Shown here: positions 1-50,010 of the stretch, piece after piece
How positions within the stretch are numbered: the stretch's first letter is position 1
Layout: every line of letters begins with the position of its first letter
NCBI GenBank assembly: GCA_019326865.1
Contig: GCA_019326865.1_4101.1
Strand: one strand, 5' to 3'
Length of the DNA: 64,000 bases
DNA from: a phage
The notes under the pieces: model-generated
The model's database searches: none
The model's input: only the letters and a program-made list of their open reading frames with translations
Told to the model about the DNA's origin: nothing
Translations under genes and position numbers: made by a program

Positions 1-95
1 AATAATTGAATCATATAATGTACAAGAACTTGATGTGAACAGTATTAAGTAGTATAATAAATAATAATATATTATATGTTAAAGGAGGGCACACG

Positions 96-10171: not shown

Positions 10172-10531
10172 ATGGCATCTTTAAGTGAAATCGCGGAATA
10201 CAATCCACTAACAATCTCAACAATTCAACGTACAAAAACTTTTTATTTCCGTCCTGTTGATGGATGGAAACGTGGAATGAATAGTGACTATCGAGTACTG
10301 GAAGATTCACTCATCGAGCGTATCAACTCTGAACTACAGAAGTATGAAGGTGTTAAAGTTGTACGTTCAACTTCTCGTTATTTTGAGTACTATATTGAGT
10401 CTTTAACAGTAAATGAAAACTCATCATCATCTGTGGATAACACTGATATTCTTCGTAATGCAGTTGGTCTGTTATGCAACATTGCAGAAGAAATGGGATT
10501 AACTATCACAACAATGAGTGAAATAGAATAA
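10172..10531 (+). CDS. hypothetical protein
   Basis: ORF; start at MASLSEI with SD gagga (track start 10124 lies in promoter region). Confidence 0.55.
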   Translation: MASLSEIAEYNPLTISTIQRTKTFYFRPVDGWKRGMNSDYRVLEDSLIERINSELQKYEGVKVVRSTSRYFEYYIESLTVNENSSSSVDNTDILRNAVGLLCNIAEEMGLTITTMSEIE

Positions 10532-16089: not shown

Positions 16090-16138
16090 AATTTCTCTCC
16101 TTCATTCATTATACTGTATTTAACCCAATTAAGAAAAG

Positions 16139-16155
16139 CCAGTATCAAGTACTGG
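16139..16155 (-). terminator. hairpin ccagtatcaagtactgg
   Basis: Perfect inverted repeat after stop of 16163..17512; recurs at 17561 and 19997. Confidence 0.55.
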
Positions 16156-16162
16156 TATTTTA

Positions 16163-17512: not shown

Positions 17513-17560
17513 ATTTCCCTCCTTTATTCATTATACTATATTTAATACTAAAAGAAAAAG

Positions 17561-17577
17561 CCAGTATCAAGTACTGG
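17561..17577 (-). terminator. hairpin ccagtatcaagtactgg
   Basis: Same hairpin, after stop of 17585..18694. Confidence 0.55.
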
Positions 17578-17584
17578 CATTATG

Positions 17585-18694
17585 TCATTTTGGTAAATTA
17601 ATTTTAGTAAAGGCTGCAACATCCTCGATTGCACCAGGAATTGCGTAATACGATCCAGTACTATATACATCTCCGTCTTTGGTTAATATTGATGTTAAAC
17701 CATCACTAAAAAGAACATCCCTAATCTCACTAACTTCAACGGGTAATTGTAAATTAGTAGCACTATATATTGCACCAGTTTGAGAATTGTTTAATCCCAA
17801 ACCACGGTTCGCCCCAACACCCTTCTGATATGTACTAGTAATTACCATTTGTGTAGCAGTATTTAAGGCAGGTGAATTCGTCATAAACAACGGTGAACTA
17901 TTAGGCAAAGTACTTGCAGGAACTGCACGAAATGTAGTTGTATCTGAACTAAGAAAGTTTGGCGTTTGACCACATACGAAATATGATGTACCATTATAGT
18001 AATTAAATGCATTACCACCAATGACTGCATCGATTACACCAGAGCTACGTAATCCCCACGTGTTAATTTGTGTTCGGTTCCCCGTGCCATGCTGACCCCT
18101 GTCATTCCACCCAGAACTATATAACTTATTATCTAATGTAATATACATACTGTCATTTGCATTCGTCATTACTTTACGCACATTAGTAGCACATTGAGTT
18201 AATGTGTAAATTGATGATGAACCAATACCTAAAGCACCACGATATCCATTAGCTCCTGCACCATAGAGTACTGAACTAGTGCTAAGTACAAATATTAAAC
18301 CATACGAACATACAATATTAGCAATTTCACTCACTGGTATAGCACTGGTAAACCAATTAGTTCTTTCAACTAATACTGTGCTGTAAGAAGTAGTTGTAGA
18401 CGATGTGAACCAATATGTTTCCCCTGATGTCCATATAGTATTATCATTTTTAATAATAACAAGTGCACGATCACCTACGAAAAAATTAGAAACATCTGCA
18501 CTTACTAATATCCATGAAGATACCGTGTTTTTATTACCATTTCCAGATTCACCACCTTGATTTCTACCTATGTAATATAAATCATGTGAATCAGTTAATA
18601 AGAATTGACCCTGTGTAGATGCACCAACTTTAATTATATTTTTAGGACCAGGTACAATATTCCCATAATCAAACATTCTTACAAAAGGTAACAT
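17585..18694 (-). CDS. RCC1-repeat-like protein, paralog 3; N-terminus MLPFVRMFDYGN
   Basis: Start placed at conserved MLPF methionine with SD ggag (track start is 15 nt upstream); motifs LYYIGRNQGGESGNG, LYSSGWNDRGQHGTGN. Confidence 0.65.
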   Translation of the reverse strand: MLPFVRMFDYGNIVPGPKNIIKVGASTQGQFLLTDSHDLYYIGRNQGGESGNGNKNTVSSWILVSADVSNFFVGDRALVIIKNDNTIWTSGETYWFTSSTTTSYSTVLVERTNWFTSAIPVSEIANIVCSYGLIFVLSTSSVLYGAGANGYRGALGIGSSSIYTLTQCATNVRKVMTNANDSMYITLDNKLYSSGWNDRGQHGTGNRTQINTWGLRSSGVIDAVIGGNAFNYYNGTSYFVCGQTPNFLSSDTTTFRAVPASTLPNSSPLFMTNSPALNTATQMVITSTYQKGVGANRGLGLNNSQTGAIYSATNLQLPVEVSEIRDVLFSDGLTSILTKDGDVYSTGSYYAIPGAIEDVAAFTKINLPK

Positions 18695-18768
18695 AACTAA
18701 AATCTCCATATAATAATTATAATGTATTTACAAAAAAATACCAGTACGTATTTCAGTACTGGTATCAT

Positions 18769-19950
18769 TTATGGTAAAATGATAGATTGTAACGAACTCA
18801 TACCCAATGCTGGAACACTAGCCTGTGGTGCTGGAGAATTCAATTTTGGTGATGAAACCGCATATGACATTCCTGAACCCAAATCTGGATCAAAAACTAC
18901 AGCACAATAATTCCCACTATATATAAGTCCATTCTTGTATCCTTGTGCACTTTGAATGCATTTCGTGAACGTACCAATATCTGTCGTGGCATTTATTAAG
19001 TTCCTCCCACGATAACCGCAGGTGTATATGAAATTATCATCGCCTATGTACATACTAGAATCCCCAGAAGAACTACATAGATACGACATATAAGCACGCA
19101 TGTTTTTAGGAGCAACTGACAATGTACCTGCATAGAATTTATTATTCGAACCCGTAATATCACCATCACCCAATGCACCAAAACTTCCCCAGCCAGTACC
19201 GTAATATCTCTTATCACTCAAAAATATAATACAGTTGTTATTACACATCTTGATTTGATATATCAATGAAGGATCAACCCCAGGGAATGATTCAGTGAAT
19301 GTTAGAACAGCCGGATCAGTACTAGCATTACATTGATGATATGTATTAGTACCAGCGGACAAGATTGTTCCATTAGCTAACAGAATTCTCGCAGTACCAG
19401 TACCAGCAGTACAAGCAACTGCACTTCCTGCACTTCCGGTGTATATTTGTCTGAAAGTAAAGAAACCAACAGTTTTACTTCCCTGCCCACTCCAACCAGT
19501 ATTATCAACTCCACACGCCCATACTGAACCATCTTGCATGATCATCATTACACCAAAGCGTTCTATTGAAATATAAACAATCTTCGTTGTATCAACTGCA
19601 CTAAATCTAGAAGTTATATCAGTCCATACCTTAACACTTACCGCCGTCGCACTGGAAGTAGGATCTTCACCAGCTATCATTATCCTCCCATTGTTAGTAA
19701 GATACATTGTCTGACTATAACCAGTACTACAAAACTTAACACTATCAGTCTCTGGAACTTTTAACCACTCGTTGTAACGTGTTACGTTAGTGTTATTACC
19801 TAACTGATAATAGTTATTCATCCCAGATACATATAACACACCATCCTTTATTAAACTATAAGTCGCACTATAGTCACTACAGGTATAACGTGTACCCACA
19901 GGTCGCTCAACGACGTTCCCGTACTTAACCATTCTCCCAAAAGGTAACAT
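18769..19950 (-). CDS. RCC1-repeat-like protein, paralog 4; N-terminus MLPFGRMVKYGN
   Basis: Motifs LYVSGMNNYYQLGNN, VWACGVDNTGWSGQG. Confidence 0.7.
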   Translation of the reverse strand: MLPFGRMVKYGNVVERPVGTRYTCSDYSATYSLIKDGVLYVSGMNNYYQLGNNTNVTRYNEWLKVPETDSVKFCSTGYSQTMYLTNNGRIMIAGEDPTSSATAVSVKVWTDITSRFSAVDTTKIVYISIERFGVMMIMQDGSVWACGVDNTGWSGQGSKTVGFFTFRQIYTGSAGSAVACTAGTGTARILLANGTILSAGTNTYHQCNASTDPAVLTFTESFPGVDPSLIYQIKMCNNNCIIFLSDKRYYGTGWGSFGALGDGDITGSNNKFYAGTLSVAPKNMRAYMSYLCSSSGDSSMYIGDDNFIYTCGYRGRNLINATTDIGTFTKCIQSAQGYKNGLIYSGNYCAVVFDPDLGSGMSYAVSSPKLNSPAPQASVPALGMSSLQSIILP

Positions 19951-19996
19951 ATTTTCCTCCTTTATTCATTATACTATATTTAATACAAAAAGAAAT

Positions 19997-20015
19997 GCCA
20001 GTATCAAGTACTGGC
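19997..20015 (-). terminator. hairpin gccagtatcaagtactggc
   Basis: Same hairpin, after stop of 20024..21172. Confidence 0.55.
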
Positions 20016-20023
20016 ATATTAAT

Positions 20024-21172
20024 TCATTGTATAAATGACATATCTACTTCTGTATAATTAAGAACGTTCTGTCCAGAAATACCACCCATTACTACTATTG
20101 CAAGGCCACAATAATATAATTTTCCAGTATCCGTAAGTATAAGTGATCCAGATGGACTGCGTACCAAATCACACGAACTATTAAAAGAAGTATAAGAAGG
20201 AGTATAGGAGTACTGATTATTATTATTACCAACACCTAATTGCCCAAACCCATTCGATCCAGAAGCATATAGAACTTCATCTGCTTTGACAATATGTGAT
20301 GCCATGTTACCAACACAAGTATATAGAGTATAAACTCCTGAACTCAATAATGTCGGAGTTTTATATTGTATATCTGTAGATGTAGAAGTACCACCTGTAC
20401 CAAATTCGTTCCCATATTGTGCACCGAACTGTTTACCACAAGCGTACAAATTATTATCCGATTTGATAAAAAATGTACTCTGATAACTTACATTAAAATC
20501 TATAACATCCGAAGAAATCATCGTCACCCCAGTAATAGAAGTTTGATTACCCGTGCCCAACTGGTAGTAATAGTTAAAACCACAACCCCATAAAGTATTA
20601 TCTTCTCGCAAATAAATGTTACCAACTGCCTTTTTAACCGAAGTTATAGTATCTACTCTTTTGAATGTGTTAAAAGAATTAATGTTTGTACCATCACCAA
20701 ATGATGATATGTTCGATATATTGTTAACTCCACAACAATACAATGTACCATCTTTTGTTATCAAATTCACCTTCATATCATAAAAACTACTCATGTATTT
20801 TATATCAGAAACATTAACACCACTTGATGTTATCCACGTAGTACAGTCCGTCCACAAAGTTTTTCTATCAGTTACACCAGTGAATGCCTTCGTGTTACCA
20901 GTGATAAAAACTTTTCCAGTACCTTTCTCTTCATACAATTGACAATCACTACTGTTATCTTCCAATAGAACTCGTTTAACATTCTCCGCACAAAGAATAA
21001 ATTTACTCGATGCTACACCTGTACCAGTACCCCAATTCGTCGCAGAAGATGCATACAACTTATCAGTATAAGTATCATGAAGATACATAGAATCACTGGA
21101 ATATATTTTAAAACGCCCTTCTTTCTCAGGTATAATATTCCCGTACTTAACCATTCTCCCAAAAGGTAACAT
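20024..21172 (-). CDS. RCC1-repeat-like protein, paralog 5; N-terminus MLPFGRMVKYGN
   Basis: Clearest RCC1-like motifs: LYASGSNGFGQLGVGN, LWGCGFNYYYQLGTGN. Confidence 0.75.
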   Translation of the reverse strand: MLPFGRMVKYGNIIPEKEGRFKIYSSDSMYLHDTYTDKLYASSATNWGTGTGVASSKFILCAENVKRVLLEDNSSDCQLYEEKGTGKVFITGNTKAFTGVTDRKTLWTDCTTWITSSGVNVSDIKYMSSFYDMKVNLITKDGTLYCCGVNNISNISSFGDGTNINSFNTFKRVDTITSVKKAVGNIYLREDNTLWGCGFNYYYQLGTGNQTSITGVTMISSDVIDFNVSYQSTFFIKSDNNLYACGKQFGAQYGNEFGTGGTSTSTDIQYKTPTLLSSGVYTLYTCVGNMASHIVKADEVLYASGSNGFGQLGVGNNNNQYSYTPSYTSFNSSCDLVRSPSGSLILTDTGKLYYCGLAIVVMGGISGQNVLNYTEVDMSFIQ

Positions 21173-23194: not shown

Positions 23195-23369
23195 AGAATT
23201 CTACAAAGATAAAATCCCAATGCATCTACAACACCATATACCAAACGTTGCATTGGGCATAAAAGATCACGCAAAGATAATGTTCCAACAATGTACTAAG
23301 TACACGCTCATATACGATGATAATCCATATATGCTGTACTACGTAGTAATGCTAACATTCAGGTACTAA
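23187..23369 (+). CDS. small protein, family C (MYKEFYKD..LTFRY)
   Basis: Tandem paralog. Confidence 0.55.
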   Translation: MYKEFYKDKIPMHLQHHIPNVALGIKDHAKIMFQQCTKYTLIYDDNPYMLYYVVMLTFRY

Positions 23370-23370
23370 T

Positions 23371-23550
23371 ATGCACAAATATAAAGAATTCTACCTCTCG
23401 TACCTTAATTCCGATATAGTAACATCCAATACCTTCAGTACTAAAATTATCTATAATGAAGTAATGAAAGAATGTATTAAAGGTGCTATTAACCCTAAAG
23501 ATACGTATGACTTGTACTATGCAGTACTAACCCTTGTTTTCACGAAATAA
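23371..23550 (+). CDS. small protein, family C (MHKYKEFY..), 59 aa
   Basis: Found by translating gap. Confidence 0.45.
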   Translation: MHKYKEFYLSYLNSDIVTSNTFSTKIIYNEVMKECIKGAINPKDTYDLYYAVLTLVFTK

Positions 23551-23558
23551 CACATAAT

Positions 23559-23747
23559 ATGAATAACCACAAAGAATACTACATACAATTTCTCCCCAGT
23601 ATTTTTGAACACTACGCCAGATATAAAGTCCCCCTGGATAACGATTTGGCAGTACTGGGATTCAATCACTGCATAGAACGAAGTATAGAAAATAGTAATA
23701 GCTATGAACAATTATATAACACTATCCTACTTATATTCAGGTACTAA
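23559..23747 (+). CDS. small protein, family C (MNNHKEYY..LIFRY)
   Basis: Tandem paralog. Confidence 0.55.
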   Translation: MNNHKEYYIQFLPSIFEHYARYKVPLDNDLAVLGFNHCIERSIENSNSYEQLYNTILLIFRY

Positions 23748-23748
23748 T

Positions 23749-23937
23749 ATGCACAAAGAATACTACGCAAAATATTTCCCAATGTATCTCAGAACTAATC
23801 TATTAGATAAACCTCGCGATATCAATGCACAAAACGATAAAGTGTACTTTATTATGTGCACTAAAGCATGTATACTAGATCATGACAGCTACCATCGAGT
23901 ACTGTATCATACACTGTACCTAGCTTTCGTATTCTAA
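23749..23937 (+). CDS. small protein, family C (MHKEYY..LAFVF)
   Basis: Tandem paralog. Confidence 0.55.
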   Translation: MHKEYYAKYFPMYLRTNLLDKPRDINAQNDKVYFIMCTKACILDHDSYHRVLYHTLYLAFVF

Positions 23938-23946
23938 GAGAACAAT

Positions 23947-24132
23947 ATGCATAAAGAATTCTACTTAAGCCATCTGGATCTAAACTCCCAAATGCTTATA
24001 CCACTAATCCCAATAGATATCAAGGATAAGAAAAATACCGAACAATTCATTTACCATACACAGTGTGCGATCACCCCAAATTACATTCCATATGAATTGT
24101 ACTACATTCTCGCCCTAATATATAGGTACTAA
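23947..24132 (+). CDS. small protein, family C (MHKEFY..LIYRY)
   Basis: Tandem paralog. Confidence 0.55.
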   Translation: MHKEFYLSHLDLNSQMLIPLIPIDIKDKKNTEQFIYHTQCAITPNYIPYELYYILALIYRY

Positions 24133-24133
24133 T

Positions 24134-24319
24134 ATGCATAGAGAATACTACACACAATTTGTTAAAGGGAACTACAAACATGCCGTACCCAGAACCCCTT
24201 TAAATTCTCATGACCCAAGTACTATATTCCTGTTTAATGACGCAATACGTACAGTACTCAATACTAAAGATGAACAAGTGCAGTACGTATTCTTACTTTT
24301 ACTTATATACAGACACTAA
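24134..24319 (+). CDS. small protein, family C (MHREYY..LIYRH)
   Basis: Tandem paralog. Confidence 0.55.
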   Translation: MHREYYTQFVKGNYKHAVPRTPLNSHDPSTIFLFNDAIRTVLNTKDEQVQYVFLLLLIYRH

Positions 24320-24342
24320 CTAATATACAGACACTAACTAAT
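24307..24342. repeat. perfect 18-bp tandem duplication (atacagacactaactaat x2) spanning stop codon
   Basis: Two identical adjacent 18-mers read directly. Confidence 0.8.
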
Positions 24343-24525
24343 ATGAATAAAGAACATAAAGACTTCTACATAAGAAAACTAACATTCGTCCCCGTAAGAA
24401 TATACAAAGAATGCGACCCAAGATTATACCTATGGCACTTCAATGAGTGCATAAAAGATTCTATATACCCTAAGAACTATAAAGAACAATTGTGCTCAGT
24501 ACTAACACTAGTACTATCATATTAA
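24343..24525 (+). CDS. small protein, family C (MNKEHKDFY..)
   Basis: Tandem paralog. Confidence 0.55.
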   Translation: MNKEHKDFYIRKLTFVPVRIYKECDPRLYLWHFNECIKDSIYPKNYKEQLCSVLTLVLSY

Positions 24526-24538
24526 TAGAGATAATACT

Positions 24539-24730
24539 ATGTATAAAGAGTACTATATAAGTAAACTCAAAGAGAATGAACAAGCATGGATTAAATCTAT
24601 AATAGCACTTGCATTTAATAGATATGCATTTAACAGATGCACAGAGATTGCTATAGAACCTTGTCCTATTAAAGAGAAGGCACAGTACAATCAGTACTAC
24701 TATATGTTAATGCTTATATATAGAAAGTAA
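24539..24730 (+). CDS. small protein, family C (MYKEYY..LIYRK)
   Basis: Tandem paralog. Confidence 0.55.
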   Translation: MYKEYYISKLKENEQAWIKSIIALAFNRYAFNRCTEIAIEPCPIKEKAQYNQYYYMLMLIYRK

Positions 24731-25386
24731 TTCAACATAGAGACAGGGGAAGCTCCGCAGGGTAAGCATTGGACAGGCTTTAACATATGTTATATATGTT
24801 AAAATTCAGCCTGGACAAATGCGATCACTAGGATTCTCCCCAGGCTAAACCCCGTAATCATATATAAACATTTAAGTAATCATTTATAATCATTGTGGTG
24901 ATCAGTAGTGATTAGTATTGAGTACTAGAGTGTAATAGAGTACAGGAATGTGCACGTTTAATCAAGAACGTAGCAGTACTGATATGCCACTAAGTAGGCA
25001 GAGGAAGTCTGCCGTACTTTGTAGTTTCCAAGCTCCTTTTCCATTTTGCAAATTACATCAAATGTAATCAAAAGTAATCACGTAATGATTAGTACTGAAA
25101 TATTAGTTTCATCTTTTTTCAAATACCTTTTTACCCTTCGGGATAAATGTATTTTTATCCATTTACCTTTGGGGTAAAATCCCATTACCCCTTGAGGCTC
25201 CAGCAAAAAGTTGGAAAGTACTCCATCGTAAATATGGATCGTAAAAATTTTGGAGTACCTATGAAATAAAAGTTGGATCTTCGAAAGTTGAAATTTACGT
25301 TGGGACATTGATGTTTTTTGGGATATAATGAGTTTTGTAGTGATGAAGTTTGTACGATTACAGTACTGAATAATGAAAGAAAGCTA

Positions 25387-25414
25387 TTGACATTATGATT
25401 CAGTACTGTATAAT
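25387..25414 (+). promoter_or_regulatory. orphan sigma70-like promoter (TTGACA -16- TATAAT) with no ORF downstream
   Basis: Consensus hexamers; only a ~20-codon ORF follows. Confidence 0.45.
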
Positions 25415-25785
25415 GTTCTACATAGAGAGATGAGTTGCCGCAAACAATTCATTCACTCTACCTCCTGTCGTGAGACAGTACAGAAAAGATAGTTCCTCCT
25501 ATGCGTGGTACATCTTTTTATAACCTCTTTTTTCGTAATATAAACAGTACTGGTATTAACAGAATGGTATCAGTACTGACTTTAATCTAATACATTATGC
25601 CACCAGCACAAGCTGGTGGATTCCCTCTAACAGTATTCAGTACTACATGATAGTCTTCATCCTCCTAGGGTAACATAGTGAGGGCTATTGTGGGAGTACT
25701 GAATACTCCTTTCAAAAGATAGAATAATGGTATAGTACCGACGGATTTTGGGCGTAGTTACCCTGGGTGGATTTTGGACGTAGAT

Positions 25786-25930
25786 ATGTCTAGCCCTCCA
25801 GAAGTCTGGAAGTAAAGATGGCTATCCATCTAGACGGCTAAACGGATAGATTTCTAGATGGCTGTATGGCTAGACGTTTGGATGGCTAAACGGCTAGATG
25901 GTTACACGTCTGGAAGTATAGACGGCTAAA
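25786..25930. repeat. cluster of short direct repeats (ggctaaacgg / ctagatgg / tctggaagta units), iteron-like
   Basis: Repeated 8-12 nt units in noncoding DNA. Confidence 0.5.
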
Positions 25931-26619
25931 TCAAAATTTTTATTTTGTTTTTCCAATAGTTCCCCTACCGCGTGAGGATATTTTTCCCCGCAGTATCTGG
26001 AGTTAGATTTTTCTGAATCTGGAATCATTATCTAATAAACTGGGGGCAATGTCAACCGCCTGGATGAATATTTTTAAAAATAATCTAGTACTGAATTTTG
26101 GGCGTAACTATGCACCCGGTGGGCTTGAGTCTTTCTCGACTTGATGAAACTATTATACAGTACTAGAAAAATAAAGCAATACCCTAAACGCAAAAAATTT
26201 AATTAATTTGCTTGCTATCCTGGGCCGTACTATGGTACTATTAGTTCAGTACTGAGAAAGTGCTTTAACCTGCTAGGGTGCGGGAGTGTATCCTTTTTAA
26301 ATTATATGAATTTTGGACGCAATCCCGCACCCTGTGGGTTAGTGCCTTGTGTCCGGCTTATGTAGTAATTATACGCTTTTTCAGTACTGAGTCAATAGCT
26401 AAAAACAAAAATAATTGAAAATAATTTAACGCGTTTAAACGGCCCGTAAAGCCCTGGAGTGATTGGAATGGTACAAATGTATAGCTTAGGTGTATTAATG
26501 CGTTAGAATGCGTCTGAGGCCGTTTTACGGGGTGTAGTGGTGATTTGGTTGATTCAGTACTGAATGATAGTATTCCTATATAGAAAGAAAACTATTTTAA
26601 AAGTACATGTAGAAAGTAC

Positions 26620-26647
26620 TTGCAAAGTATTGGGAAAGGTGTAGAAT
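26620..26647 (+). promoter_or_regulatory. early-type promoter TTGCAA -16- TAGAAT, followed by leader hairpin gcgggaacacttcccgc
   Basis: Hexamers and spacing read from sequence. Confidence 0.55.
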
Positions 26648-26702
26648 GTTTTACATCGAGAGCGGGAACACTTCCCGCTGCACATAAAGAGAGATTAAAA
26701 CG

Positions 26703-28093: not shown

Positions 28094-28519
28094 GCAGTTT
28101 ACAAATCTTTACAATTGCCGGTATTGACTTAAAATGTCAGTACTGGCATAATGTATCTATTGAAACGAACAATTTGGCCCACGGGGTGCGGGAGTGTATC
28201 TATAGAAAAAGTAGTTTAGTACAGTTACAATTGTGCACCCGGTGGGTTAGCTGTTGTCATGGGGTATATTATGCCAGTACTTGATAATGCTGTCAATACC
28301 TTTTTACTATTCAGTACTGAAAACTATTTGATAAAAAGTACTTGCAAACTATGTTTAAAGGCGTATAATGTTTTACATCAGGACGGGGAACGAAATAAGT
28401 AACTTCCCGTTAAGTAGCCCAGGAGTAAGGCATACGAAAAACTCCCCTGATAAAATAGTTTGACAATTGTTTTTAAAAGCGTATAATACTTACATCAACT
28501 ACTTAATGAGGGTTACAAA

Positions 28520-30059: not shown

Positions 30060-30109
30060 GTTTTACATAGAGGGGAGAAATGGTTCTCCCTGGTAATGAG
30101 GAAAATACA

Positions 30110-30331: not shown

Positions 30332-30574
30332 CAACGCGGGGAGATAATAACTCCCCGTTACTTTTTCAGTACTGAATAATTTAATAGACGGATCTATGCA
30401 CCCAGTGGGTTAGTGACTGTTTCGTCTTTATGTAGTAATTATGCCAGTACTGGATGCACTTGTCAACAACTATTTTTCAAATACTTTTTATTAAAATACT
30501 TGCAATTAGTTTTTAAACGCGTATAATGTTTTGCATAGGGGGAGCGGTTCCCCTGGTAACTAAGGAATAAGAAA

Positions 30575-34619: not shown

Positions 34620-34850
34620 AATCATTAGCTTATTATAGCTCGGCCCTGGTCGGTGCATTGATCGCGGCATTGTTAGTAGCTTATCTATTCTTTATGGTGA
34701 TTTAAATGAATCCTAACGGTATAATTTACAGTACTCCTAAAACTAAAGCAGATAAAGCGGAAGCACGTAAAGCGAAAGTAAAGGAGTACATCAAGCAAGG
34801 TATGACACGAAAGGCGGCGATTCTAAAAGCTAAAAATAAATGAAAAAAAG

Positions 34851-34940
34851 TGGTTGACTTCGGTCAGCCATTTTGCTATTATATATTCATTGAGAGATAG
34901 CTCACTAGCCCACAGGGTGCGGGAGTGTATCTATTATATA
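34851..34940 (+). repeat. ~90-bp repeat element copy 1 (hairpin ggttgacttcggtcagcc + ...tagcccacagggtgcgggagtgtatc...)
   Basis: Near-identical copies at 38578, 41587, 43870. Confidence 0.75.
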
Positions 34941-35065
34941 AGTATTGAGTACTGAAAACTATTTTAAAAGTACATGTATAAAGTACTTGCAAACTATCTC
35001 AATTGGCGTATAATGTTTTACATCGAGAGGGGAAACGGTTTCCCCTAGTAATAAGGAATAAAATC

Positions 35066-35407
35066 ATGACTATTGCAATTGTACAATCTAACTTTGAAAA
35101 TGAAATCATCGCCCAAGCACTGCGTTTAAATGATGGTCGGGCCGAAATTAATTACGGTTTCAATTCAGGCGGTTGTGAAAAATATCAGTACTTTATAACT
35201 GCTGATGGCGGTGTCCTGGGTATTAATACAGTTATTGTAAACATTCAGAAAATTAATTTCAATGATCCAGACGATAGCCAGTTTTACATTGTAGGCGTAG
35301 ACGTGAACTATGAGGATGACTCACTAACTGATGATTACACTGGCGAGAAGTTAGAAAGTGCATACGGTGAAGATGATTATCAGTCAGTACCGGAAGATTT
35401 TGAATAA
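35066..35407 (+). CDS. hypothetical acidic protein
   Basis: Start at MTIAIVQ after leader hairpin. Confidence 0.55.
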   Translation: MTIAIVQSNFENEIIAQALRLNDGRAEINYGFNSGGCEKYQYFITADGGVLGINTVIVNIQKINFNDPDDSQFYIVGVDVNYEDDSLTDDYTGEKLESAYGEDDYQSVPEDFE

Positions 35408-38562: not shown

Positions 38563-38577
38563 AAATAATTAAAAAAA

Positions 38578-38667
38578 GGATTGACTTCGGTCAGTCCTTT
38601 TTGCTATTATATATTCATTGAGAGATAGCTCACTAGCCCACAGGGTGCGGGAGTGTATCTATTATAT
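38578..38667 (+). repeat. ~90-bp repeat element copy 2
   Basis: Matches 34851 copy. Confidence 0.75.
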
Positions 38668-38894
38668 GTTGGTGGGTGTATTATCTAGTACTGAAAACTA
38701 TTTGATAAAAAGTACTTGCATTGTACTTAGAATCAAGTATAATGTTTTACATCAGGACAGGGAACGAAATAAGTAACTTCCCGTTAAGTAGCCCAGGAGT
38801 AAGGCATACGAAAAACTCCCCTGATAAAATAGTTTGACAATAGTTTTAAGTACTGATAAAATAATCACATCAACTACTGATAAGGAAACATAAA

Positions 38895-39170: not shown

Positions 39171-39256
39171 GTATTGACAAAGTATCTTAGTACTGTATAA
39201 TAGTTTACATCAAGTGAGGGGAATGGTTCCCCTCCTAACAAAGAGAGAAATAAAAA

Positions 39257-41572: not shown

Positions 41573-41586
41573 AAAAGATTAAAAAA

Positions 41587-41675
41587 GGGATTGACTCCGG
41601 TCAGTCCCTTTGCTATTATATATTCATTGAGAGATAGCTCACTAGCCCACAGGGTGCGGGAGTGTATCTATTATA
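41587..41675 (+). repeat. ~90-bp repeat element copy 3
   Basis: Matches 34851 copy. Confidence 0.75.
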
Positions 41676-41787
41676 TAAGTATTGAGTACTGAAAACTATT
41701 TTTAAAAAGTACTTGCATTGTACTTAGATTCAAGTATAATGTTTTATATCGAGAGGGGGAACGTCCCTGATAATAAGGAATAAAATC

Positions 41788-43869: not shown

Positions 43870-43955
43870 AGGGATTGACTCCGGTCAGTCCCTTTGCTAT
43901 TATATACGCATAGACAAAAACTAGCCCACAGGGTGCATAGGTGTATCTTAAATAT
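43870..43955 (+). repeat. ~90-bp repeat element copy 4 (diverged 3' half)
   Basis: Matches 41587 copy at 5' end. Confidence 0.65.
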
Positions 43956-44097
43956 ATAGTTAATAACGGTGAGTAACTATCTGCTGGTGGGGTGAAAACT
44001 ATTAATAAAAAGTATTGACAAAGTATATCAGTACTGCAATAATGTATCTCGTAGGGCGGCAATGGTGCGACGGTCCACAAAGTTAGGAGATTCACAA

Positions 44098-46043: not shown

Positions 46044-46252
46044 TTATATTAACACCTGAAGAATATAAGAAACGTTTTAATTCTGTCCAGACTGAAATAT
46101 TACTTATATACCTTTCAAATGCAGATCTTAACTTATCAAGGGTAATGGAGAAGGATTTACTTATGGGTGCATTTTTGGATACAGACTTTCAGGAGTATTA
46201 TGTAGGGGAATACTTTATTGCACTTCAGAACCACATTAAGAGTAAACTATGA
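46040..46252 (+). CDS. GTNYQ-family small protein
   Basis: Family motif; coupled. Confidence 0.65.
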   Translation: MIILTPEEYKKRFNSVQTEILLIYLSNADLNLSRVMEKDLLMGAFLDTDFQEYYVGEYFIALQNHIKSKL

Positions 46253-46464
46253 TTATTCTAGAAAAATCATATCAATATACTGAACGCATCGCTGCCAGAC
46301 AACTTGAAATCCTCATAATATACGAAGAGACTTCTGATTTAAACTTAGCCGAGGTATTGGAAAATGAAATACTTTTGGGTGCATTCTTGGGAACAGACTA
46401 TCAGGAGTATTATGAGGAAAAGTATTTGTCATCTCTTGAGAAATACGTCAGGAGCAAACTATGA
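46249..46464 (+). CDS. GTNYQ-family small protein
   Basis: Family motif; coupled. Confidence 0.65.
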   Translation: MIILEKSYQYTERIAARQLEILIIYEETSDLNLAEVLENEILLGAFLGTDYQEYYEEKYLSSLEKYVRSKL

Positions 46465-46688
46465 AACATTTAAGTAATATAGAGAAGAATAAAATTATCA
46501 TTGCTGTAATAAACAAATATTTTACACTTCCACAAAAAGAATGTTTATCTATAAGGGAACACAGGATAAACACCACCGAGATTCGCATGTTGGCTGTACT
46601 GGGGACTAACTTCCAAGAAGGCTATGTTCATGAGCACATCGTTGCACTCACTAATTACATAATGGACAAATGCAATGAACATCATTAA
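46461..46688 (+). CDS. GTNYQ-family small protein
   Basis: Family motif; coupled. Confidence 0.65.
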   Translation: MKHLSNIEKNKIIIAVINKYFTLPQKECLSIREHRINTTEIRMLAVLGTNFQEGYVHEHIVALTNYIMDKCNEHH

Positions 46689-46899
46689 TAACTTTGAATA
46701 CGAGGCCCGTGTTAAGAGTGCCAGAAAAAAAGAGAACACCATTTACTTCACTATGATGTACTTACAATGGACTGAAATTGAAGAAAAGGTTGCTGAAGTA
46801 TGGATGTTGGAATTCATGGGGACGCAGTATCAGAATAGGTTTGCGGGTGAGTATATCAATGTTCTTATGAAACAAATAGAAAGGAAGGAAAAGAACTAA
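46675..46899 (+). CDS. GTNYQ-family small protein
   Basis: Family motif (MGTQYQNRF). Confidence 0.6.
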   Translation: MNIINNFEYEARVKSARKKENTIYFTMMYLQWTEIEEKVAEVWMLEFMGTQYQNRFAGEYINVLMKQIERKEKN

Positions 46900-46984
46900 T
46901 GGAGGGATGCTGTACTTTATTGGAACTTTTATATATTCATGAACACATAGTTGCCCTCACAAATCTAATAAAGGATAAATGTAA
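46900..46984 (+). pseudogene. decayed fragment of a GTNYQ-family gene
   Basis: Translates in pieces to LYFIGT.. and EHIVALTNLIKDKCK, matching C-terminus of 46461 gene, without intact ORF. Confidence 0.5.
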
Positions 46985-47242
46985 ATGAAACACTTGACTG
47001 ATGATGAACATGAAACTATAATTCGTAAACTAACCCCCATCACAAGGATAGTCTACGGTGATCCCAGCCTCACATGGAACCAAATGCGAGCTAAAGTTAA
47101 TGAGCTATGGTTGCTGTACTTTATGGGGACTCAATATCAAGATAAGTTTTGCACAGAATATATCGAACAATTAACGAATGTTATACAGGATAAACTAAAT
47201 GAACGAATTGTGGAAAAATATGAAAACTTTATCAAGCATTGA
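46985..47242 (+). CDS. GTNYQ-family small protein (extended C-terminus; usual coupled stop lost)
   Basis: Family motif; junction aaactaAATGaa instead of aaactATGA. Confidence 0.6.
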   Translation: MKHLTDDEHETIIRKLTPITRIVYGDPSLTWNQMRAKVNELWLLYFMGTQYQDKFCTEYIEQLTNVIQDKLNERIVEKYENFIKH

Positions 47243-47471
47243 GTATCAGACTGCCCTCTTCTCTCTTCTAAACACCCTCCGCACGAACAATAAACTTTAT
47301 AATTCACGTGAAGCTGATATTGTCAACGCTGATGTATATCTTAATAAATTTATAGGGACTAACTATCAAGAACTGTTTGTTTTACGATATATCTCTGCAC
47401 TAAGAAACGAAATATCAGATAAAACCCGCCAAGCCAGAAGAGAATGGAAGAGACAATGCAACAAAGACTAA
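47199..47471 (+). CDS. GTNYQ-family small protein
   Basis: Family motif FIGTNYQELFV. Confidence 0.6.
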   Translation: MNELWKNMKTLSSIEYQTALFSLLNTLRTNNKLYNSREADIVNADVYLNKFIGTNYQELFVLRYISALRNEISDKTRQARREWKRQCNKD

Positions 47472-47707
47472 ATCACAAAATGTATTGTAAACTATTACAG
47501 AATCTAGGACAAAAACACTATGATACAGTATCTGAAATATTACCCTATGATATCATGCGTTTAATTCATAGTGAGGCAGAGATGCTTGTACTGATGACCG
47601 GTACTGATAAAACAGCAATCACCAGATCGATAGAGCAATATATTGATGCACACTGTCAATGTATTAGAACTGAGATATGGAGGCGAGTAAATGAAAGTAC
47701 TGAATGA
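47444..47707 (+). CDS. GTNYQ-family-like small protein (diverged motif MTGTDKTA)
   Basis: Position in array; weak motif. Confidence 0.45.
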   Translation: MEETMQQRLNHKMYCKLLQNLGQKHYDTVSEILPYDIMRLIHSEAEMLVLMTGTDKTAITRSIEQYIDAHCQCIRTEIWRRVNESTE

Positions 47708-47906
47708 GTATCAGTATCATTGGAGGTTACAAACTATAAGAGGGAAAGTTGTTAGTATTTCTTTAGACAAGTCTATTGCACAAGAGGACAAATGTGTTAT
47801 AATAGCTGAAATGAAGTTGGGTGTATTTGTAGGAACAAACTATCAAAACATCTACACTGACGTATTATTAAGTGCCTTACGCAACAAGGTGTTATCCAGA
47901 GAATGA
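47691..47906 (+). CDS. GTNYQ-family small protein
   Basis: Family motif. Confidence 0.65.
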   Translation: MKVLNEYQYHWRLQTIRGKVVSISLDKSIAQEDKCVIIAEMKLGVFVGTNYQNIYTDVLLSALRNKVLSRE

Positions 47907-48121
47907 GAAAATTAATAGGTTACGAATATGTTAAGCTTCTGAAAACCTGTAGTATTAGCAGGGTAAAGATTCAATCTGATAAGAGTATTCCTGTTGAACT
48001 AAAGTACGCAATGATGGCTGAACTTTATGTAGGTGCACTATTGGGGACAAACTATCAACAAATGTATGTAGACCTATGGGTTGACGCTCTACTGAAAGAG
48101 GTCCAAAGTAAATGCAAATGA
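47903..48121 (+). CDS. GTNYQ-family small protein
   Basis: Family motif. Confidence 0.65.
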   Translation: MRKLIGYEYVKLLKTCSISRVKIQSDKSIPVELKYAMMAELYVGALLGTNYQQMYVDLWVDALLKEVQSKCK

Positions 48122-48333
48122 TTCATTTATCTTACTATGAATATCAAAAACGTTTAAATGCATCAAGGGATATAAGGATTAAAATCTACAATAACAAAAG
48201 ATTGAAATCTGAAGCCAAAAAAATCAAAATGATAGAAGCTGAATTATGCAACTTCCTTGGGACGAACTATCAGGATGATAAGGTAACAAACTATCTTAGA
48301 GAACTAATGATTAGTATCAAGAGTAAATGTTAG
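48112..48333 (+). CDS. GTNYQ-family small protein
   Basis: Family motif. Confidence 0.65.
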   Translation: MQMIHLSYYEYQKRLNASRDIRIKIYNNKRLKSEAKKIKMIEAELCNFLGTNYQDDKVTNYLRELMISIKSKC

Positions 48334-48337
48334 GCAG

Positions 48338-48595
48338 ATGTACATGAAAATGATTAAATTATCTCAAGCAAAATATAAAGAACGCCTGGAAAAAATTACA
48401 CCTAGACTTAATGAAATCCATCACGGAGAAGTCATTAAACACGGAAATAAGATGATTATGAAACTTGAGTTAAAGGTGGGTGCATTCATAGGAACAAACT
48501 ATCAGGAGTATTATGTAGATGAATACATAATCGCACTTAAGAGATACATTGGAAGAAAACTATATCTACAAACTAAAGAATTGTATTGCAAATAA
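48338..48595 (+). CDS. GTNYQ-family small protein
   Basis: Family motif. Confidence 0.65.
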   Translation: MYMKMIKLSQAKYKERLEKITPRLNEIHHGEVIKHGNKMIMKLELKVGAFIGTNYQEYYVDEYIIALKRYIGRKLYLQTKELYCK

Positions 48596-48876
48596 ATGCA
48601 AGGATAATGAATATGAAAATGATCAATTTAAGTAAAGATGAATATACCGAGCGTATGACAAAAATTACGCACAAACGTAATACAATCTATCACAACCCAG
48701 AAATTCAACACAGTAAGAAAATGATTATGATGCGTGAGTTAAAGATGGGTGTATTCTTGGGAACAAACTATCAAGATACAGAAGTAAATCGCTTAATCGC
48801 GGAGTTACTACTGGAAATCAGAGGTAAGCTGTACTTTCATCAAATGACCCAACCACTGAGGTGTACTAAGAAATGA
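48586..48876 (+). CDS. GTNYQ-family small protein
   Basis: Family motif. Confidence 0.65.
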   Translation: MQINARIMNMKMINLSKDEYTERMTKITHKRNTIYHNPEIQHSKKMIMMRELKMGVFLGTNYQDTEVNRLIAELLLEIRGKLYFHQMTQPLRCTKK

Positions 48877-49088
48877 TCAACATCACATTGCAAGAAAGAT
48901 TCATCCGAATCAACTATGCAATTACCAAATTAGATGCTACTATAGGATTCCAAAGTCTACCGTTCCAAACAAGAATGATATTAGAGTGCGAAGCTAAATT
49001 GGGTGTACTGTTAGGAACGCAACACCAACAACGATATGTGGAAATCTGGATTGATCTTTTAACCCAAAATGTACATGAGAAAATGTAA
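48873..49088 (+). CDS. GTNYQ-family small protein
   Basis: Family motif (LGTQHQQRYV). Confidence 0.6.
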   Translation: MINITLQERFIRINYAITKLDATIGFQSLPFQTRMILECEAKLGVLLGTQHQQRYVEIWIDLLTQNVHEKM

Positions 49089-49325
49089 ATGAAAAATGAA
49101 ATGATATACTTAACGAATGAAGAGTTTCAAGAGAAGATGTTAAAAATCTATGATAATACTCTTGAGTACGTTCCAAATCAATCAATATATGAAGTGTCTG
49201 CGAATGTATTATTTCAGAAGCTACCATACGTTCTTGGAACGGATAAACAAGAATTTATGGTCAAAAATATGATTGAACATCTTATGATGAGTATTAAGGA
49301 AAAAGTGAATGCAAAAGAAAAATGA
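49089..49325 (+). CDS. GTNYQ-family small protein
   Basis: Family motif (LGTDKQEF). Confidence 0.6.
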   Translation: MKNEMIYLTNEEFQEKMLKIYDNTLEYVPNQSIYEVSANVLFQKLPYVLGTDKQEFMVKNMIEHLMMSIKEKVNAKEK

Positions 49326-49572
49326 AATGATATACTTAACACCTGCTGAGTTAACAGAAAGACTAGTTAAATCCAGAAGATATACAAATCAACTTCCTCA
49401 CAACCCAAATCAAACCCCAGCGGAAAGGAGTGCAGAAGTTTTATTCCAATCACTACCATACCTTCTTGGAACTAATAGACAAGAGTATCATATCGAACGT
49501 ATAATTAAATATCTTAAAATTACTATTAAGGAAAAAGTAAATGCTCAAGAATTTAAAAATCCTAACAGTTAA
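49309..49572 (+). CDS. GTNYQ-family small protein
   Basis: Family motif (LGTNRQEY). Confidence 0.6.
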   Translation: MQKKNEMIYLTPAELTERLVKSRRYTNQLPHNPNQTPAERSAEVLFQSLPYLLGTNRQEYHIERIIKYLKITIKEKVNAQEFKNPNS

Positions 49573-49783
49573 TGAATATCATAAGATTGTAATGAAAACT
49601 AATAGTGCAATTTCTAAAAAATCAAACCCAAAGTACATACTGGAACACACATTTGAAGAACGTCAATTAGCTTTAGTTGAAGCAAAACTTCTTGCACTCT
49701 TAGGAACAAACTATCAGGAAGAATACATCAGAAAACTAATATACCTTTTAACTAAACACATCAGGAAAAGAAAAAAAGCATGA
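49541..49783 (+). CDS. GTNYQ-family small protein
   Basis: Family motif. Confidence 0.65.
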   Translation: MLKNLKILTVNEYHKIVMKTNSAISKKSNPKYILEHTFEERQLALVEAKLLALLGTNYQEEYIRKLIYLLTKHIRKRKKA

Positions 49784-50010
49784 AGCACTTGACAGATGAT
49801 GAACATGGGCTTATAGTAATGGATGTAATCAACATCGAATACAAAAAGTTGATACGCTATCGTTGTTATGAAGATAAGCAACTAGTTCTAGCAGAACAGA
49901 AGTTGTTTCGACTCTTAAACACAAACTTCCAAGCACAATACGAAGAATCGTATATGTACCTTTTGGCGAGGAAAGCAAAAAGAGATTATGAAAATTTTAA
50001 GCAAAGGTGA
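49780..50010 (+). CDS. GTNYQ-family small protein
   Basis: Family motif (LNTNFQAQY). Confidence 0.6.
   Translation: MKHLTDDEHGLIVMDVINIEYKKLIRYRCYEDKQLVLAEQKLFRLLNTNFQAQYEESYMYLLARKAKRDYENFKQR

What the first reader, a model, noticed from the sequence alone, without database searches (positions are those of the whole stretch)
34851..34940. ~90-bp element present in four near-identical copies
Copies at 34851, 38578, 41587 and 43870 each contain a GGATTGACTTCGGTCAG(C/T)C hairpin, then ...TTGCTATTATATATTCATTGAGAGATAGCTCACTAGCCCACAGGGTGCGGGAGTGTATCTATTATAT, and each is followed by an early-type promoter. Conservation far exceeds neighbouring intergenic DNA. They could be recombination substrates for cassette shuffling, a small-RNA family or protein-binding sites. 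Shorter relatives of the GGGTGCGGGAGTGTATC core occur at ~26270 and ~28185.
Basis: seen in the sequence. Interest (0 to 1): 0.5.

Follow-up and report, generated by a model that had tools for sequence, protein, structure and literature searches.

The report
Repeated promoter-driven two-hairpin RNA module
The repeat is one face of an apparently undescribed family of about ten tiny transcription units in the terminal repeat of 121Q/RaK2-like jumbo phages; each has its own host-type promoter and a short RNA with a 5' hairpin and an almost invariant CCC-loop-GGGUGC hairpin, and its function is unknown.

Summary
The window comes from an Asteriusvirus-like E. coli jumbo phage. The four + strand copies exist: three are 94% identical and the fourth 76-82%.

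They belong to a family of ten members at 26.09-43.96 kb. Five of these lie on the minus strand, and two sets form convergent pairs. All ten lie inside the roughly 21-kb direct terminal repeat, and a related 352-kb genome has none elsewhere.

Every member has a sigma70-like promoter at a fixed distance, found in 63 of 68 copies across six genomes against a 3.6% background. In the four + copies, the "hairpin" is the upstream gene's terminator, with the -35 box built into its stem.

The transcribed part has three sections:
- **H1:** a 5'-terminal hairpin whose stems covary (26 arm combinations; the four top mutual-information pairs).
- **H2:** an invariant hairpin, R-CCC-(3-4 nt)-GGG-U, followed by GC.
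- **Tail:** a conserved single-stranded stretch.

Minus-strand solo copies end at intrinsic terminators, giving RNAs of about 100 nt. The family spans four named phage genera plus the unclassified Salmonella phage Munch. It matches no Rfam family, and I found no paper describing it.

Best reading: a multi-copy immediate-early structured RNA that acts through a protein-binding hairpin. That function is inferred, not shown.

The parts
34847..34874 (+). Intrinsic terminator of the upstream gene (12-bp stem, UUCG loop, T-run). The -35 box TTGACT (34854-34859) lies in its 5' arm.
   Evidence: -15.9 kcal/mol, z -5.4
34854..34882 (+). Element promoter: TTGACT-17-TATTAT, with TG upstream of the -10 box.
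   Evidence: position conserved in 63/68 copies
34883..34942 (+). Transcribed element, copy 1. Inferred start at A of CAT (34889). H1 34891-34894/34901-34904, H2 34908-34918, core CCCACAGGGTGC 34909-34920, tail from 34921.
   Evidence: (65.6 bits)
38573..38602 (+). Terminator with embedded -35 box, copy 2.
38581..38610 (+). Element promoter, copy 2 (TTGACT-18-TATTAT).
38611..38670 (+). Transcribed element, copy 2. Converted to the copy 1/3 type in this lineage.
   Evidence: (66.1 bits)
41584..41611 (+). Terminator with embedded -35 box, copy 3.
41591..41619 (+). Element promoter, copy 3.
41620..41679 (+). Transcribed element, copy 3.
   Evidence: 65.6 bits
43868..43895 (+). Terminator with embedded -35 box, copy 4.
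43875..43903 (+). Element promoter, copy 4.
43904..43958 (+). Transcribed element, copy 4. This is the H1-less subtype (A-rich leader catagacaaaaactag), with tail GCATAGGTGTATCT.
   Evidence: (42.1 bits)
30376..30466 (-). Minus-strand solo unit: promoter TTGACA-17-CATAAT (30466-30438) plus element (30435-30376).
   Evidence: 47.9 bits
30337..30357 (-). Bidirectional intrinsic terminator that ends the minus-strand solo transcript, predicting an RNA of about 100 nt.
28124..28211 (+). Left half of a convergent pair: promoter 28124-28152 plus element 28151-28211.
   Evidence: 38 bits
28213..28296 (-). Right half of the convergent pair: promoter 28296-28268 plus element 28269-28213. The two cores are 58 bp apart.
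   Evidence: 23.3 bits
26305..26395 (-). Right half of a convergent pair: promoter 26395-26368 plus element 26365-26305.
   Evidence: 42.2 bits
26212..26303 (+). Left, degenerate half of that pair: promoter-like TTGCTA-18-TACTAT plus element 26240-26303. Its H2 5' arm has decayed (CTAGGGTGCGGGAG).
   Evidence: (21 bits, E 0.007)
26090..26179 (-). Minus-strand member: promoter TTGCTT-16-TATAAT (26179-26152) plus element 26149-26090.
   Evidence: (48.3 bits)

Best explanation
Each copy is a miniature transcription unit, not just a repeat. Host sigma70 RNA polymerase starts at a dedicated promoter. In + copies, that promoter's -35 box is built into the preceding gene's terminator stem. The resulting short RNA begins one or two bases before a small hairpin, H1. 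H1's sequence is free to change as long as it still pairs, which suggests a generic 5'-end stabiliser. After a yUA linker comes an almost invariant hairpin, H2: R-CCC-(3-4 nt loop)-GGG-U followed by GC. A conserved single-stranded tail follows (purine-rich and often GGAG-like, then U, then GUAUCU or CCGUCU). About ten units lie in each roughly 21-kb terminal repeat, so about twenty per packaged genome. That repeat also carries the dense early sigma70-promoter region. I infer that the RNA accumulates immediately after infection and that H2 plus the tail is the docking site for one conserved protein partner, host or phage, which it titrates or recruits. Minus-strand solo copies end at intrinsic terminators as RNAs of about 100 nt. 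Plus-strand copies run on through the next promoter and so also form an alternative 5' leader. Convergent pairs give transcripts that overlap at their 3' ends. Shown here: the family, its promoters, the two hairpins, the terminators and the distribution. Inferred: that transcription occurs, the start site, action as RNA in trans, and the protein partner. The confidence of 0.5 is for the whole statement; that it is a promoter-driven structured RNA module is about 0.8, and that it acts in trans through a protein is about 0.4-0.5.
For: Promoter: 63/68 copies in six genomes have TTGNNN-16..18-NANNNT ending 3-10 nt before a conserved CA(T/A), against 3.6% of random positions; 54/68 have TTGACN against 0.5%. 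H1: on 18 in-register copies, all four pairs show double changes, with 35 such cells against 11.3+-2.6 in shuffles (0/500), 96.5% of cells paired, and at most 51% when the partner is slid. On 68 model-aligned copies there are 105 double-change cells against 37+-4. A blind APC-corrected mutual-information scan puts exactly the four H1 pairs on top. RNAalifold returns the same two hairpins. There are 26 distinct arm combinations. Mean folding energy is -2.98 against -0.48 kcal/mol for shuffles, and 34/49 segments fall in their own top 5%. H2: CCC/GGG is invariant except for one CCT..AGG double change; the loop varies in sequence and length (ACA, ATA, TATA, TCAA, TAGA); the closing pair is A-U 35 times and G-U 30-31 times. 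Strand: 38 G-U/U-G cells against about 4 A-C cells, so the structure is selected on the promoter's sense strand. Discrete RNA: nine of the ten minus-strand solo copies examined in six genomes have an intrinsic terminator or terminator-like hairpin 35-50 nt past the tail; window 26113 has none (30337-30357 in the window). Orientation-independent placement (4 +, 2 -, 2 pairs) argues for a product rather than a cis effect. Conservation: 442 places in 95 phage records; the full-length matches are all in the 121Q/RaK2-like group (Asteriusvirus, Alcyoneusvirus, Mimasvirus, Eneladusvirus, Munch-like) at 3-11 places per genome, while hits in unrelated phages cover only the first ~35-49 nt, the terminator/promoter part. 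In a complete 352-kb relative all 10 members lie in 19 kb. That stretch corresponds to the terminal repeat.
Against: There are no expression data for any phage of this group, so transcription, the start site and the 3' ends are predictions. Plus-strand copies have no terminator of their own before the next promoter, so for them a cis role as a leader is equally possible. No partner protein is identified. The tail shows no covariation and no convincing target: the core's complement occurs nowhere else in the phage genome, and no similar sequence was found in E. coli genomes, though that search is insensitive to short matches. Single-sequence folds are not strongly better than shuffles (z -1.4 to -3.1). 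Some copies lack H1.
Confidence: 0.5

Rival explanations
1. Cis-acting 5' leader. The RNA stays on, or acts through, the polymerase or transcript that made it. It could be a put- or nut-like processive antitermination signal, letting polymerase from the element promoter read through later terminators. Or it could be a 5' stabiliser combining a terminal hairpin with an SD-like GGAG that binds 30S subunits.
For: It consists of two hairpins directly downstream of a promoter. In all + solo copies of six genomes the unit is the first promoter after a strong terminator and reads into the next gene. Many H1 loops are GNRA-like plus A (GCGAAA, GAGAAA), which recalls boxB loops (from my own knowledge). 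A good share of the tails are GGAG/GGAGG-like (seen in the alignment rows; not counted). A -10-like TATNNT or TAAAAT follows the tail in many copies.
Against: Five of the ten window members point against or towards each other, and minus-strand solos run straight into a terminator, beyond which lies only antisense of a + gene. The next gene has its own promoter 50-90 nt downstream. There is no boxA-like sequence. H1 is missing in several copies.
Confidence: 0.2
2. DNA-level role through transcription. The G-rich transcript (GGGUGCGGGAG) forms an R-loop next to AT-rich DNA. That R-loop primes replication, as at T4-type origins, or stimulates recombination between the two terminal repeats. Convergent pairs would act as bidirectional initiation zones.
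For: The family is confined to the terminal repeat. Convergent pairs sit in gene-free gaps with AT-rich centres, with cores 58 bp apart in about 10 of about 13 pairs. The same region is strongly enriched in Chi sites in one orientation. These phages are T4-related. T4 origins being a promoter plus an unwinding element is from my own knowledge.
Against: An R-loop does not need a covarying 5' hairpin or an invariant CCC/GGG hairpin. Only one or two G clusters are present, followed by sequence with no G skew. Ten origins in 18 kb is implausible.
Confidence: 0.1
3. A PeSL-like composite terminator/promoter cassette whose main significance is as dispersed homology for recombination and gene shuffling. 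On this reading the transcribed part has no function of its own.
For: The four + copies are terminator-plus-promoter composites in a plastic region of small ORFs, as described for PeSLs. One gene-conversion event between copies is visible.
Against: The most conserved part lies downstream of the promoter and is held across genera at the level of RNA structure. Minus-strand and paired copies have no upstream terminator. Indel breakpoints against relatives lie at the generic early promoters, not at the element.
Confidence: 0.08
4. A duplex-DNA operator. On this reading CCCAYNGGGTGC is bound by a phage or host DNA-binding protein that regulates the adjacent promoters.
For: A 12-nt invariant block sits at a fixed distance from a promoter, and paired sites occur at a preferred spacing.
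Against: The spacer between CCC and GGG varies from 3 to 4 nt and in sequence. One compensatory CCT..AGG change is present. The closing pair is G-U in about 45% of copies. The adjacent H1 covaries as a hairpin. All of this fits single-stranded nucleic acid.
Confidence: 0.05

Closest known systems
PeSL (promoter-early stem-loop) cassettes of T4-type phages (Arbiol et al. 2010, PMC2839356; Comeau et al. 2014, PMC4122927)
   Same: Both are small composite terminator stem-loop plus sigma70-like early promoter motifs, repeated many times among small ORFs in plastic early regions of T4-related phages. Both show signs of recombination between copies.
   Different: Here the terminator and promoter overlap, with the -35 box inside the stem. 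The promoter drives a conserved structured RNA rather than the next ORF. Half of the members have no terminator upstream and lie on the other strand or in convergent pairs. Breakpoints are not concentrated at the element.
HK022 put and lambda nut promoter-proximal RNA elements (own knowledge, not tested against sequences)
   Same: All are short RNAs with hairpins made right after an early promoter in a phage early region rich in terminators.
   Different: No boxA is present. Orientation is mixed, including convergent pairs, and minus-strand copies run straight into terminators. There are about ten copies per repeat instead of one per operon.
Highly transcribed ncRNA001/ncRNA002 in the terminal repeat of the related Pseudomonas jumbo phage PA5oct (Lood et al. 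2020, PMC7318152)
   Same: Both are non-coding transcripts from ORF-free gaps of the long terminal repeat of a phage of the same broad clade, and both are of unknown function.
   Different: No sequence or motif similarity was found; the core is absent from both loci. The PA5oct RNAs are 236-451 nt, and no promoter is known for them.
Stand-alone bacterial/phage small RNA genes (promoter, ~100 nt, AU-rich stretch, intrinsic terminator)
   Same: The minus-strand solo units have exactly this anatomy.
   Different: The conserved part is a hairpin plus tail rather than an obvious single-stranded seed. No target complementarity was found. The family is multi-copy with variable 5' hairpins.

Membership tests
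Any Rfam 15 family | Match to a covariance model at or near its gathering score | tested here: not met
   There were no gathering-level hits in the 64 kb. In E-value mode on a solo copy and on a convergent pair, only terminator-like and long-hairpin (miRNA-model) noise appeared, far below the gathering scores.
tRNA / tmRNA | Cloverleaf or tmRNA detected by ARAGORN | tested here: not met
   No tRNA or tmRNA gene was found in the window.
PeSL cassette | Composite stem-loop terminator followed by a sigma70-like early promoter | tested here: inconclusive
   This is met by the four + copies. It is not met by the six other members, which have no upstream stem-loop.
PeSL cassette | Preferentially at the boundaries of indels between close relatives | tested here: not met
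   Breakpoints against EC22.5-2 and G17 lie at the generic early promoters. Copies 38.6, 41.6 and 43.9 kb are inside collinear blocks.
PeSL cassette | The promoter serves the adjacent ORF, with no conserved transcribed non-coding segment | tested here: not met
   A conserved structured segment of about 55 nt follows the promoter, and a second promoter serves the ORF.
lambda-type nut site | boxA consensus (CGCUCUUA-like) next to a boxB hairpin with a GNRA-like pentaloop | tested here: not met
   No boxA-like block appears in the aligned family. H1 loops are often GNGAAA but vary, and H1 is absent in several copies. The consensus sequences are from my own knowledge.
HK022 put-type antiterminator RNA | Two stem-loops just downstream of a promoter | tested here: met
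   H1 and H2 lie within about 35 nt of the inferred start.
HK022 put-type antiterminator RNA | Acts in cis to suppress downstream terminators of a co-directional operon | not testable with these tools
   The mixed orientations and the terminators directly after minus-strand copies argue against it, but only transcription assays can decide.
   Stems are 12-13 bp, followed by TTT(T)G, and start 4-13 nt after the upstream stop codons. ARNOLD/ARNold terminator or stem-loop features are annotated in G17 and GAP32, several at positions matching copies of the element; I matched them by coordinates only.
Stand-alone sRNA gene | Own promoter, no ORF, own terminator, discrete transcript | tested here: inconclusive
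   The promoter and terminator are predicted for minus-strand solo copies in six genomes. The transcript itself has not been observed, and + copies lack a terminator.

The most novel reading that the evidence does not exclude
A new class of multi-copy, immediate-early phage RNA. About twenty promoter-driven copies per packaged genome would fire from the terminal repeat, the region carrying the early promoters. Their invariant CCC-loop-GGGUGC hairpin plus tail would sequester or redirect a conserved host factor, such as an RNA-binding protein, a nuclease or a defence component. That would make it an RNA-based host-takeover or anti-defence device shared by all 121Q/RaK2-like jumbo phages.
Probability: 0.3. 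Interest if true: 0.8.

Novelty: new variant of a known kind. Interest (0 to 1): 0.55.

Why it matters
Jumbo phages of the 121Q/RaK2 group are used in phage-therapy work, yet the contents of their roughly 20-kb terminal repeats are almost entirely "hypothetical".

This analysis defines a conserved structured RNA family there, complete with promoters, boundaries and a covariance model. No genome record I inspected annotates it, and it matches no Rfam family.

It gives a concrete handle on early host takeover: roughly ten to thirteen identical-core RNAs per repeat, which can be tested by a Northern blot and a pull-down. It would also improve annotation, because several short "hypothetical proteins" overlap these units.

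If the RNA proves to be a decoy or a polymerase-modifying element, it would add an RNA-based mechanism to a field dominated by protein effectors.

Tried and rejected
- **3' UTR of a duplicated gene:** rejected. The flanking ORFs and the upstream 150 nt are unrelated.
- **Outer stem or pseudoknot between the 5' region (H1 loop) and the tail:** suggested by the window's own copies (AGAUA..UAUCU). There is no copy-specific complementarity across 64 copies: matched -4.24 against mismatched -4.08 kcal/mol, permutation p = 0.22. No long-range mutual information appears beyond H1.
- **Third hairpin in the tail (AGA..UCU):** the middle pair would be A-C in half of the copies, so rejected.
- **Mini-ORF starting at tail positions 5-7 (AUG/GUG-UAU-CUA-stop):** only about 60% of copies have NUG there. 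The SD-like GGAG abuts the codon with no spacing, and ORF lengths are erratic, so it was not pursued.
- **Homology with the PA5oct terminal-repeat ncRNAs:** none found.
- **Wider distribution:** an exact 16-mer scan of IMG/VR returned only CBB, GAP32, RaK2 and BF with the full architecture. The other hits are coding-sequence chance matches.
- **Host mimicry:** no blastn match in 5,426 E. coli genomes, but that search cannot see matches shorter than about 20 nt.
- **Antisense targets in the phage:** the core's complement occurs only at the family's own minus-strand copies, plus one unrelated palindrome, in 352 kb.
- **Literature:** the motif string does not appear in any phage paper. The CBB, fEgEco12, Sharanji and fENko-Kae01 papers do not describe the element.

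Full report
**Identity of the window.** A 5-kb stretch around the finding matches 79 phage records. The best are Escherichia jumbo phages of the 121Q/PBECO4/G17 group (Asteriusvirus), at 90-94% identity.

The region from about 25 to 45 kb is a dense array of small + strand ORFs with dozens of sigma70-like promoters. In vB_Ec-M-J the element equivalent to window 34845 lies at 10351 inside an annotated direct terminal repeat of 1-21525. Asteriusvirus terminal repeats of 20.7-21.5 kb are reported by PhageTerm and restriction mapping (PMC13070987 and PMC11895373). If the two genomes are collinear, the repeat spans roughly window 24.5-46.0 kb.

**The observation.**
- Copies 1-3 are 94% identical over about 94 nt. 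Copy 4 is 76-82% identical to them.
- The upstream 150 nt are 25-35% identical, which is random, and the flanking ORFs show no similarity. The refuting scenario of a UTR from a duplicated gene therefore fails.
- The 12-nt core CCCACNGGGTGC occurs nine times exactly, against 0.15 expected.

**Anatomy.** When each core is read on its own strand, a sigma70-type promoter always lies upstream. It is TTGAC(A/T), 16-18 bp, then TATTAT, CATAAT or TATAAT, often with TG upstream of the -10 box. The -10 box ends 21-29 nt before the core.

It has a 12-13 bp stem, a UUCG or UCCG loop and a T-run, with -15.9 kcal/mol and z = -5.4. Its 5' arm carries the -35 box.

Across 68 copies in six genomes, 63 have such a promoter ending 3-10 nt before a conserved CA(T/A). 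The background rate at random positions is 3.6%. I infer that transcription starts at that A. This is not shown.

**Relatives.** A 101-nt query finds 442 places in 95 phage records. Full-length matches occur in these groups:
- Asteriusvirus (E. coli and Salmonella hosts);
- Alcyoneusvirus (RaK2, K64-1);
- Mimasvirus (GAP32, CBB);
- Eneladusvirus (Serratia BF, Erwinia pEa phages, the latter with weaker and fewer matches);
- the Munch/SE_PL group.

These genomes have 3-11 places each, and several hits fall under annotated terminal repeats. Hits in unrelated phages (Vibrio, Enterobacter, Brochothrix and others) cover only the first ~35-49 nt, the terminator/promoter part.

I fetched the early regions of G17, CBB, GAP32, RaK2, BF and Munch. 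None of these records annotates the element; only ARNold terminators or stem-loops are marked. Scans show the same layout everywhere:

promoter, CA(T/A), a 3-5 bp hairpin H1 with an A-rich 6-8 nt loop, a yUA(A/G) linker, CCCAYNGGGTGC, then a tail.

**Structure.**
- *H1, curated subset.* On 18 copies that are in register without gaps, all four H1 pairs show changes on both sides. There are 35 double-change cells against 11.3+-2.6 in shuffles (0/500). Of all cells in the two helices, 96.5% pair, against at most 51% when the 3' partner is slid.
- *H1, all copies.* A covariance model built from that subset (R1) recovers 68 copies in seven sources. On that alignment H1 has 105 double-change cells against 37+-4. 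That subset was chosen by eye, so I ran three checks that do not depend on it:
  - A blind APC-corrected mutual-information scan ranks exactly the four H1 pairs first.
  - RNAalifold predicts the same two hairpins.
  - The 49 distinct 5' segments fold at -2.98 kcal/mol on average against -0.48 for shuffles, and 34 are in their own top 5%. There are 26 different arm combinations.
- *H2.* CCC/GGG is invariant apart from one CCT..AGG double change in CBB. The loop varies in sequence and length (ACA, ATA, ACC, TATA, TCAA, TAGA). The closing pair is A-U in 35 copies and G-U in 30-31.
- *Strand.* G-U pairs (38 cells) greatly outnumber A-C pairs (about 4). The structure is therefore selected on the strand the promoter transcribes. 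This argues for RNA rather than a symmetrical DNA cruciform.
- *Tail.* The tail after GGGUGC is conserved in sequence only. Positions 1-5 are purine-rich (GGAGA, GGGAG or AUAGA). Position 6 is U in 64 of 68 copies. Then comes GUAUCU, CCGUCU or GUGUCC, with C at position 11 in 63 of 68. It ends in AU.. or AAAAUUCA. I found no pairing partner for the tail.

**Arrangements.** The window has ten members, all between 26.09 and 43.96 kb; the next hit has E = 0.58.
- Four + solo units lie at 34.9, 38.6, 41.6 and 43.9 kb.
- Two minus-strand members lie at 26.1 and 30.4 kb.
- Two convergent pairs lie at 26.24-26.37 kb (left half degenerate) and 28.15-28.27 kb.

A complete, unannotated relative (EC22.5-2, 352 kb) has ten members in the same order and orientation. 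All sit within 19 kb and none elsewhere.

The two cores of a pair are 58 bp apart in about 10 of about 13 pairs seen. The Munch and BF exceptions are at 69 and about 76 bp (my arithmetic).

Nine of the ten minus-strand solo copies examined in six genomes are followed 35-50 nt after the tail by an intrinsic terminator or a terminator-like hairpin. This is usually the bidirectional terminator of the neighbouring + gene. The exception is window 26113, which has none. Such units predict discrete RNAs of about 100 nt (30337-30357 in the window).

Plus-strand solo copies have no terminator of their own. In every genome another sigma70-like promoter for the next gene follows 50-90 nt downstream.

**Recombination.**
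- Breakpoints of collinearity with EC22.5-2 and G17 fall at the generic early promoters: 30857, 32856, 34437, about 35000-35072, 36849, 37236, 37858 and 42055.
- Three of the four + copies lie inside collinear blocks.
- Copy 38637 is 92% identical to copies 34909 and 41646. It is only 73-74% identical to its positional orthologues, which are of the H1-less type. The other three copies are 93-96% identical to theirs.
- One gene conversion has therefore homogenised the copies in this lineage. It does not make the element a preferred shuffling junction.

**Comparison with known systems.**
- *Rfam and tRNA.* No Rfam family matches and ARAGORN finds nothing.
- *Literature.* The motif string appears in no phage paper. 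The papers on CBB, fEgEco12, Sharanji and fENko-Kae01 describe promoters or terminal repeats but not this element.
- *PeSL cassettes.* The closest described concept is the PeSL composite terminator/promoter cassette of T4-type phages. The + copies share that architecture. However, the family's defining part is the transcribed structured segment, and six of ten members have no terminator upstream.
- *put and nut.* These elements share the promoter-proximal hairpins. The mixed orientations, the convergent pairs and the terminators straight after minus-strand copies do not fit a cis antiterminator, and there is no boxA.
- *PA5oct.* This phage has two abundant ncRNAs in its terminal repeat, but they share no motif with this family. 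They offer only an analogy.

**Mechanism, and how sure I am.**
- A promoter-driven structured RNA module conserved across four phage genera plus the unclassified Munch group: about 0.8.
- The RNA product itself is the functional entity, acting through a protein that reads H2 plus the tail, with H1 as a generic 5' stabiliser: about 0.4-0.5. This rests on the orientation-independent placement, the stand-alone minus-strand units, the multi-copy dosage in the early-promoter-rich terminal repeat, and invariance concentrated in one small hairpin and its flanks.
- Rivals: a cis leader for antitermination or stabilisation (0.2), an R-loop for replication or recombination (0.1), a PeSL-like recombination cassette with no RNA function (0.08), and a duplex-DNA operator (0.05).
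- None of these can be settled without expression and binding data.

**Verdict.** As far as these tools and libraries show, the family is undescribed. I rate it a new variant of a known kind (phage regulatory cassettes and small RNAs), with interest 0.55.

Noticed in passing
whole window, densest 20000-44000: The palindrome AGTACT occurs 227 times against about 22 expected; other 6-mer palindromes of the same composition occur 9-37 times. A 352-kb relative has 919. It sits at fixed places in promoters (AAAAAGTACTTGCA at the -35 box; cAGTACTGTATAAT and AGTACTGGCATAAT just before the -10 box), 10-22 nt after the element's tail, and as the arms of some terminators.
   Followed up: partly
window 25612, 31961, 36271, 37413, 42182, 43759, 43983 (+ strand); 25600 (- strand): Chi sites (GCTGGTGG) are strongly enriched and co-oriented in the terminal-repeat region. 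There are 8 on the + strand in 64 kb against 0.21 expected, and 7 of them lie at 25.6-44.0 kb. In EC22.5-2, 9 of 16 + strand Chi sites lie in the homologous 19 kb. This may protect the repeat from RecBCD or promote its recombination.
   Followed up: partly
e.g. window 35026-35046, 30066-30087, 39218-39232, and after most early promoters at 26-45 kb: Nearly every early promoter is followed a few bases after the predicted start by a GC-rich 5'-UTR hairpin of the type GGGGAAAnnGTTTCCCC, just before the ribosome-binding site (families D1, D3 and D12). It is probably a 5' stabiliser.
   Followed up: no
window 28305-28473 and 38679-38847: A 169-nt duplicate (91% identical) comprises an early promoter, an ORF-free transcribed segment of about 85 nt that can fold into a closed multi-hairpin shape, and then a second promoter. 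There is no Rfam match and the folding z-scores are weak, -0.9 to -1.8 (family D14, 90, 91).
   Followed up: partly
window 23200-26700: This is a gene-poor stretch at the inferred left end of the terminal repeat. It contains the 26.1-26.4 kb members, an inverted Chi pair at 25600/25612 and several promoter-like sites on both strands.
   Followed up: no
window 14944-21172 (- strand): Five consecutive minus-strand ORFs of 374-449 aa lie immediately before the terminal-repeat region. They look like a tandem paralogous family. Near its start, GAP32 has two minus-strand genes, one annotated RCC1-like and one a virion structural protein.
   Followed up: no
window 46100-50000: Direct-repeat families D8, D11, D17 and D18 (motif TGGGTGCATTCTTGGGAACAAACTATCAGGAGTATTATG, spaced at about 212-270 and 950 nt) suggest a tandem array of short paralogous ORFs just past the last element.
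   Followed up: no
L002 3793-3966 (CBB_7); window ORFs 26278-26418 and 28174-28284: Short ORFs, annotated or callable, overlap the convergent element pairs and are probably spurious.
   Followed up: no
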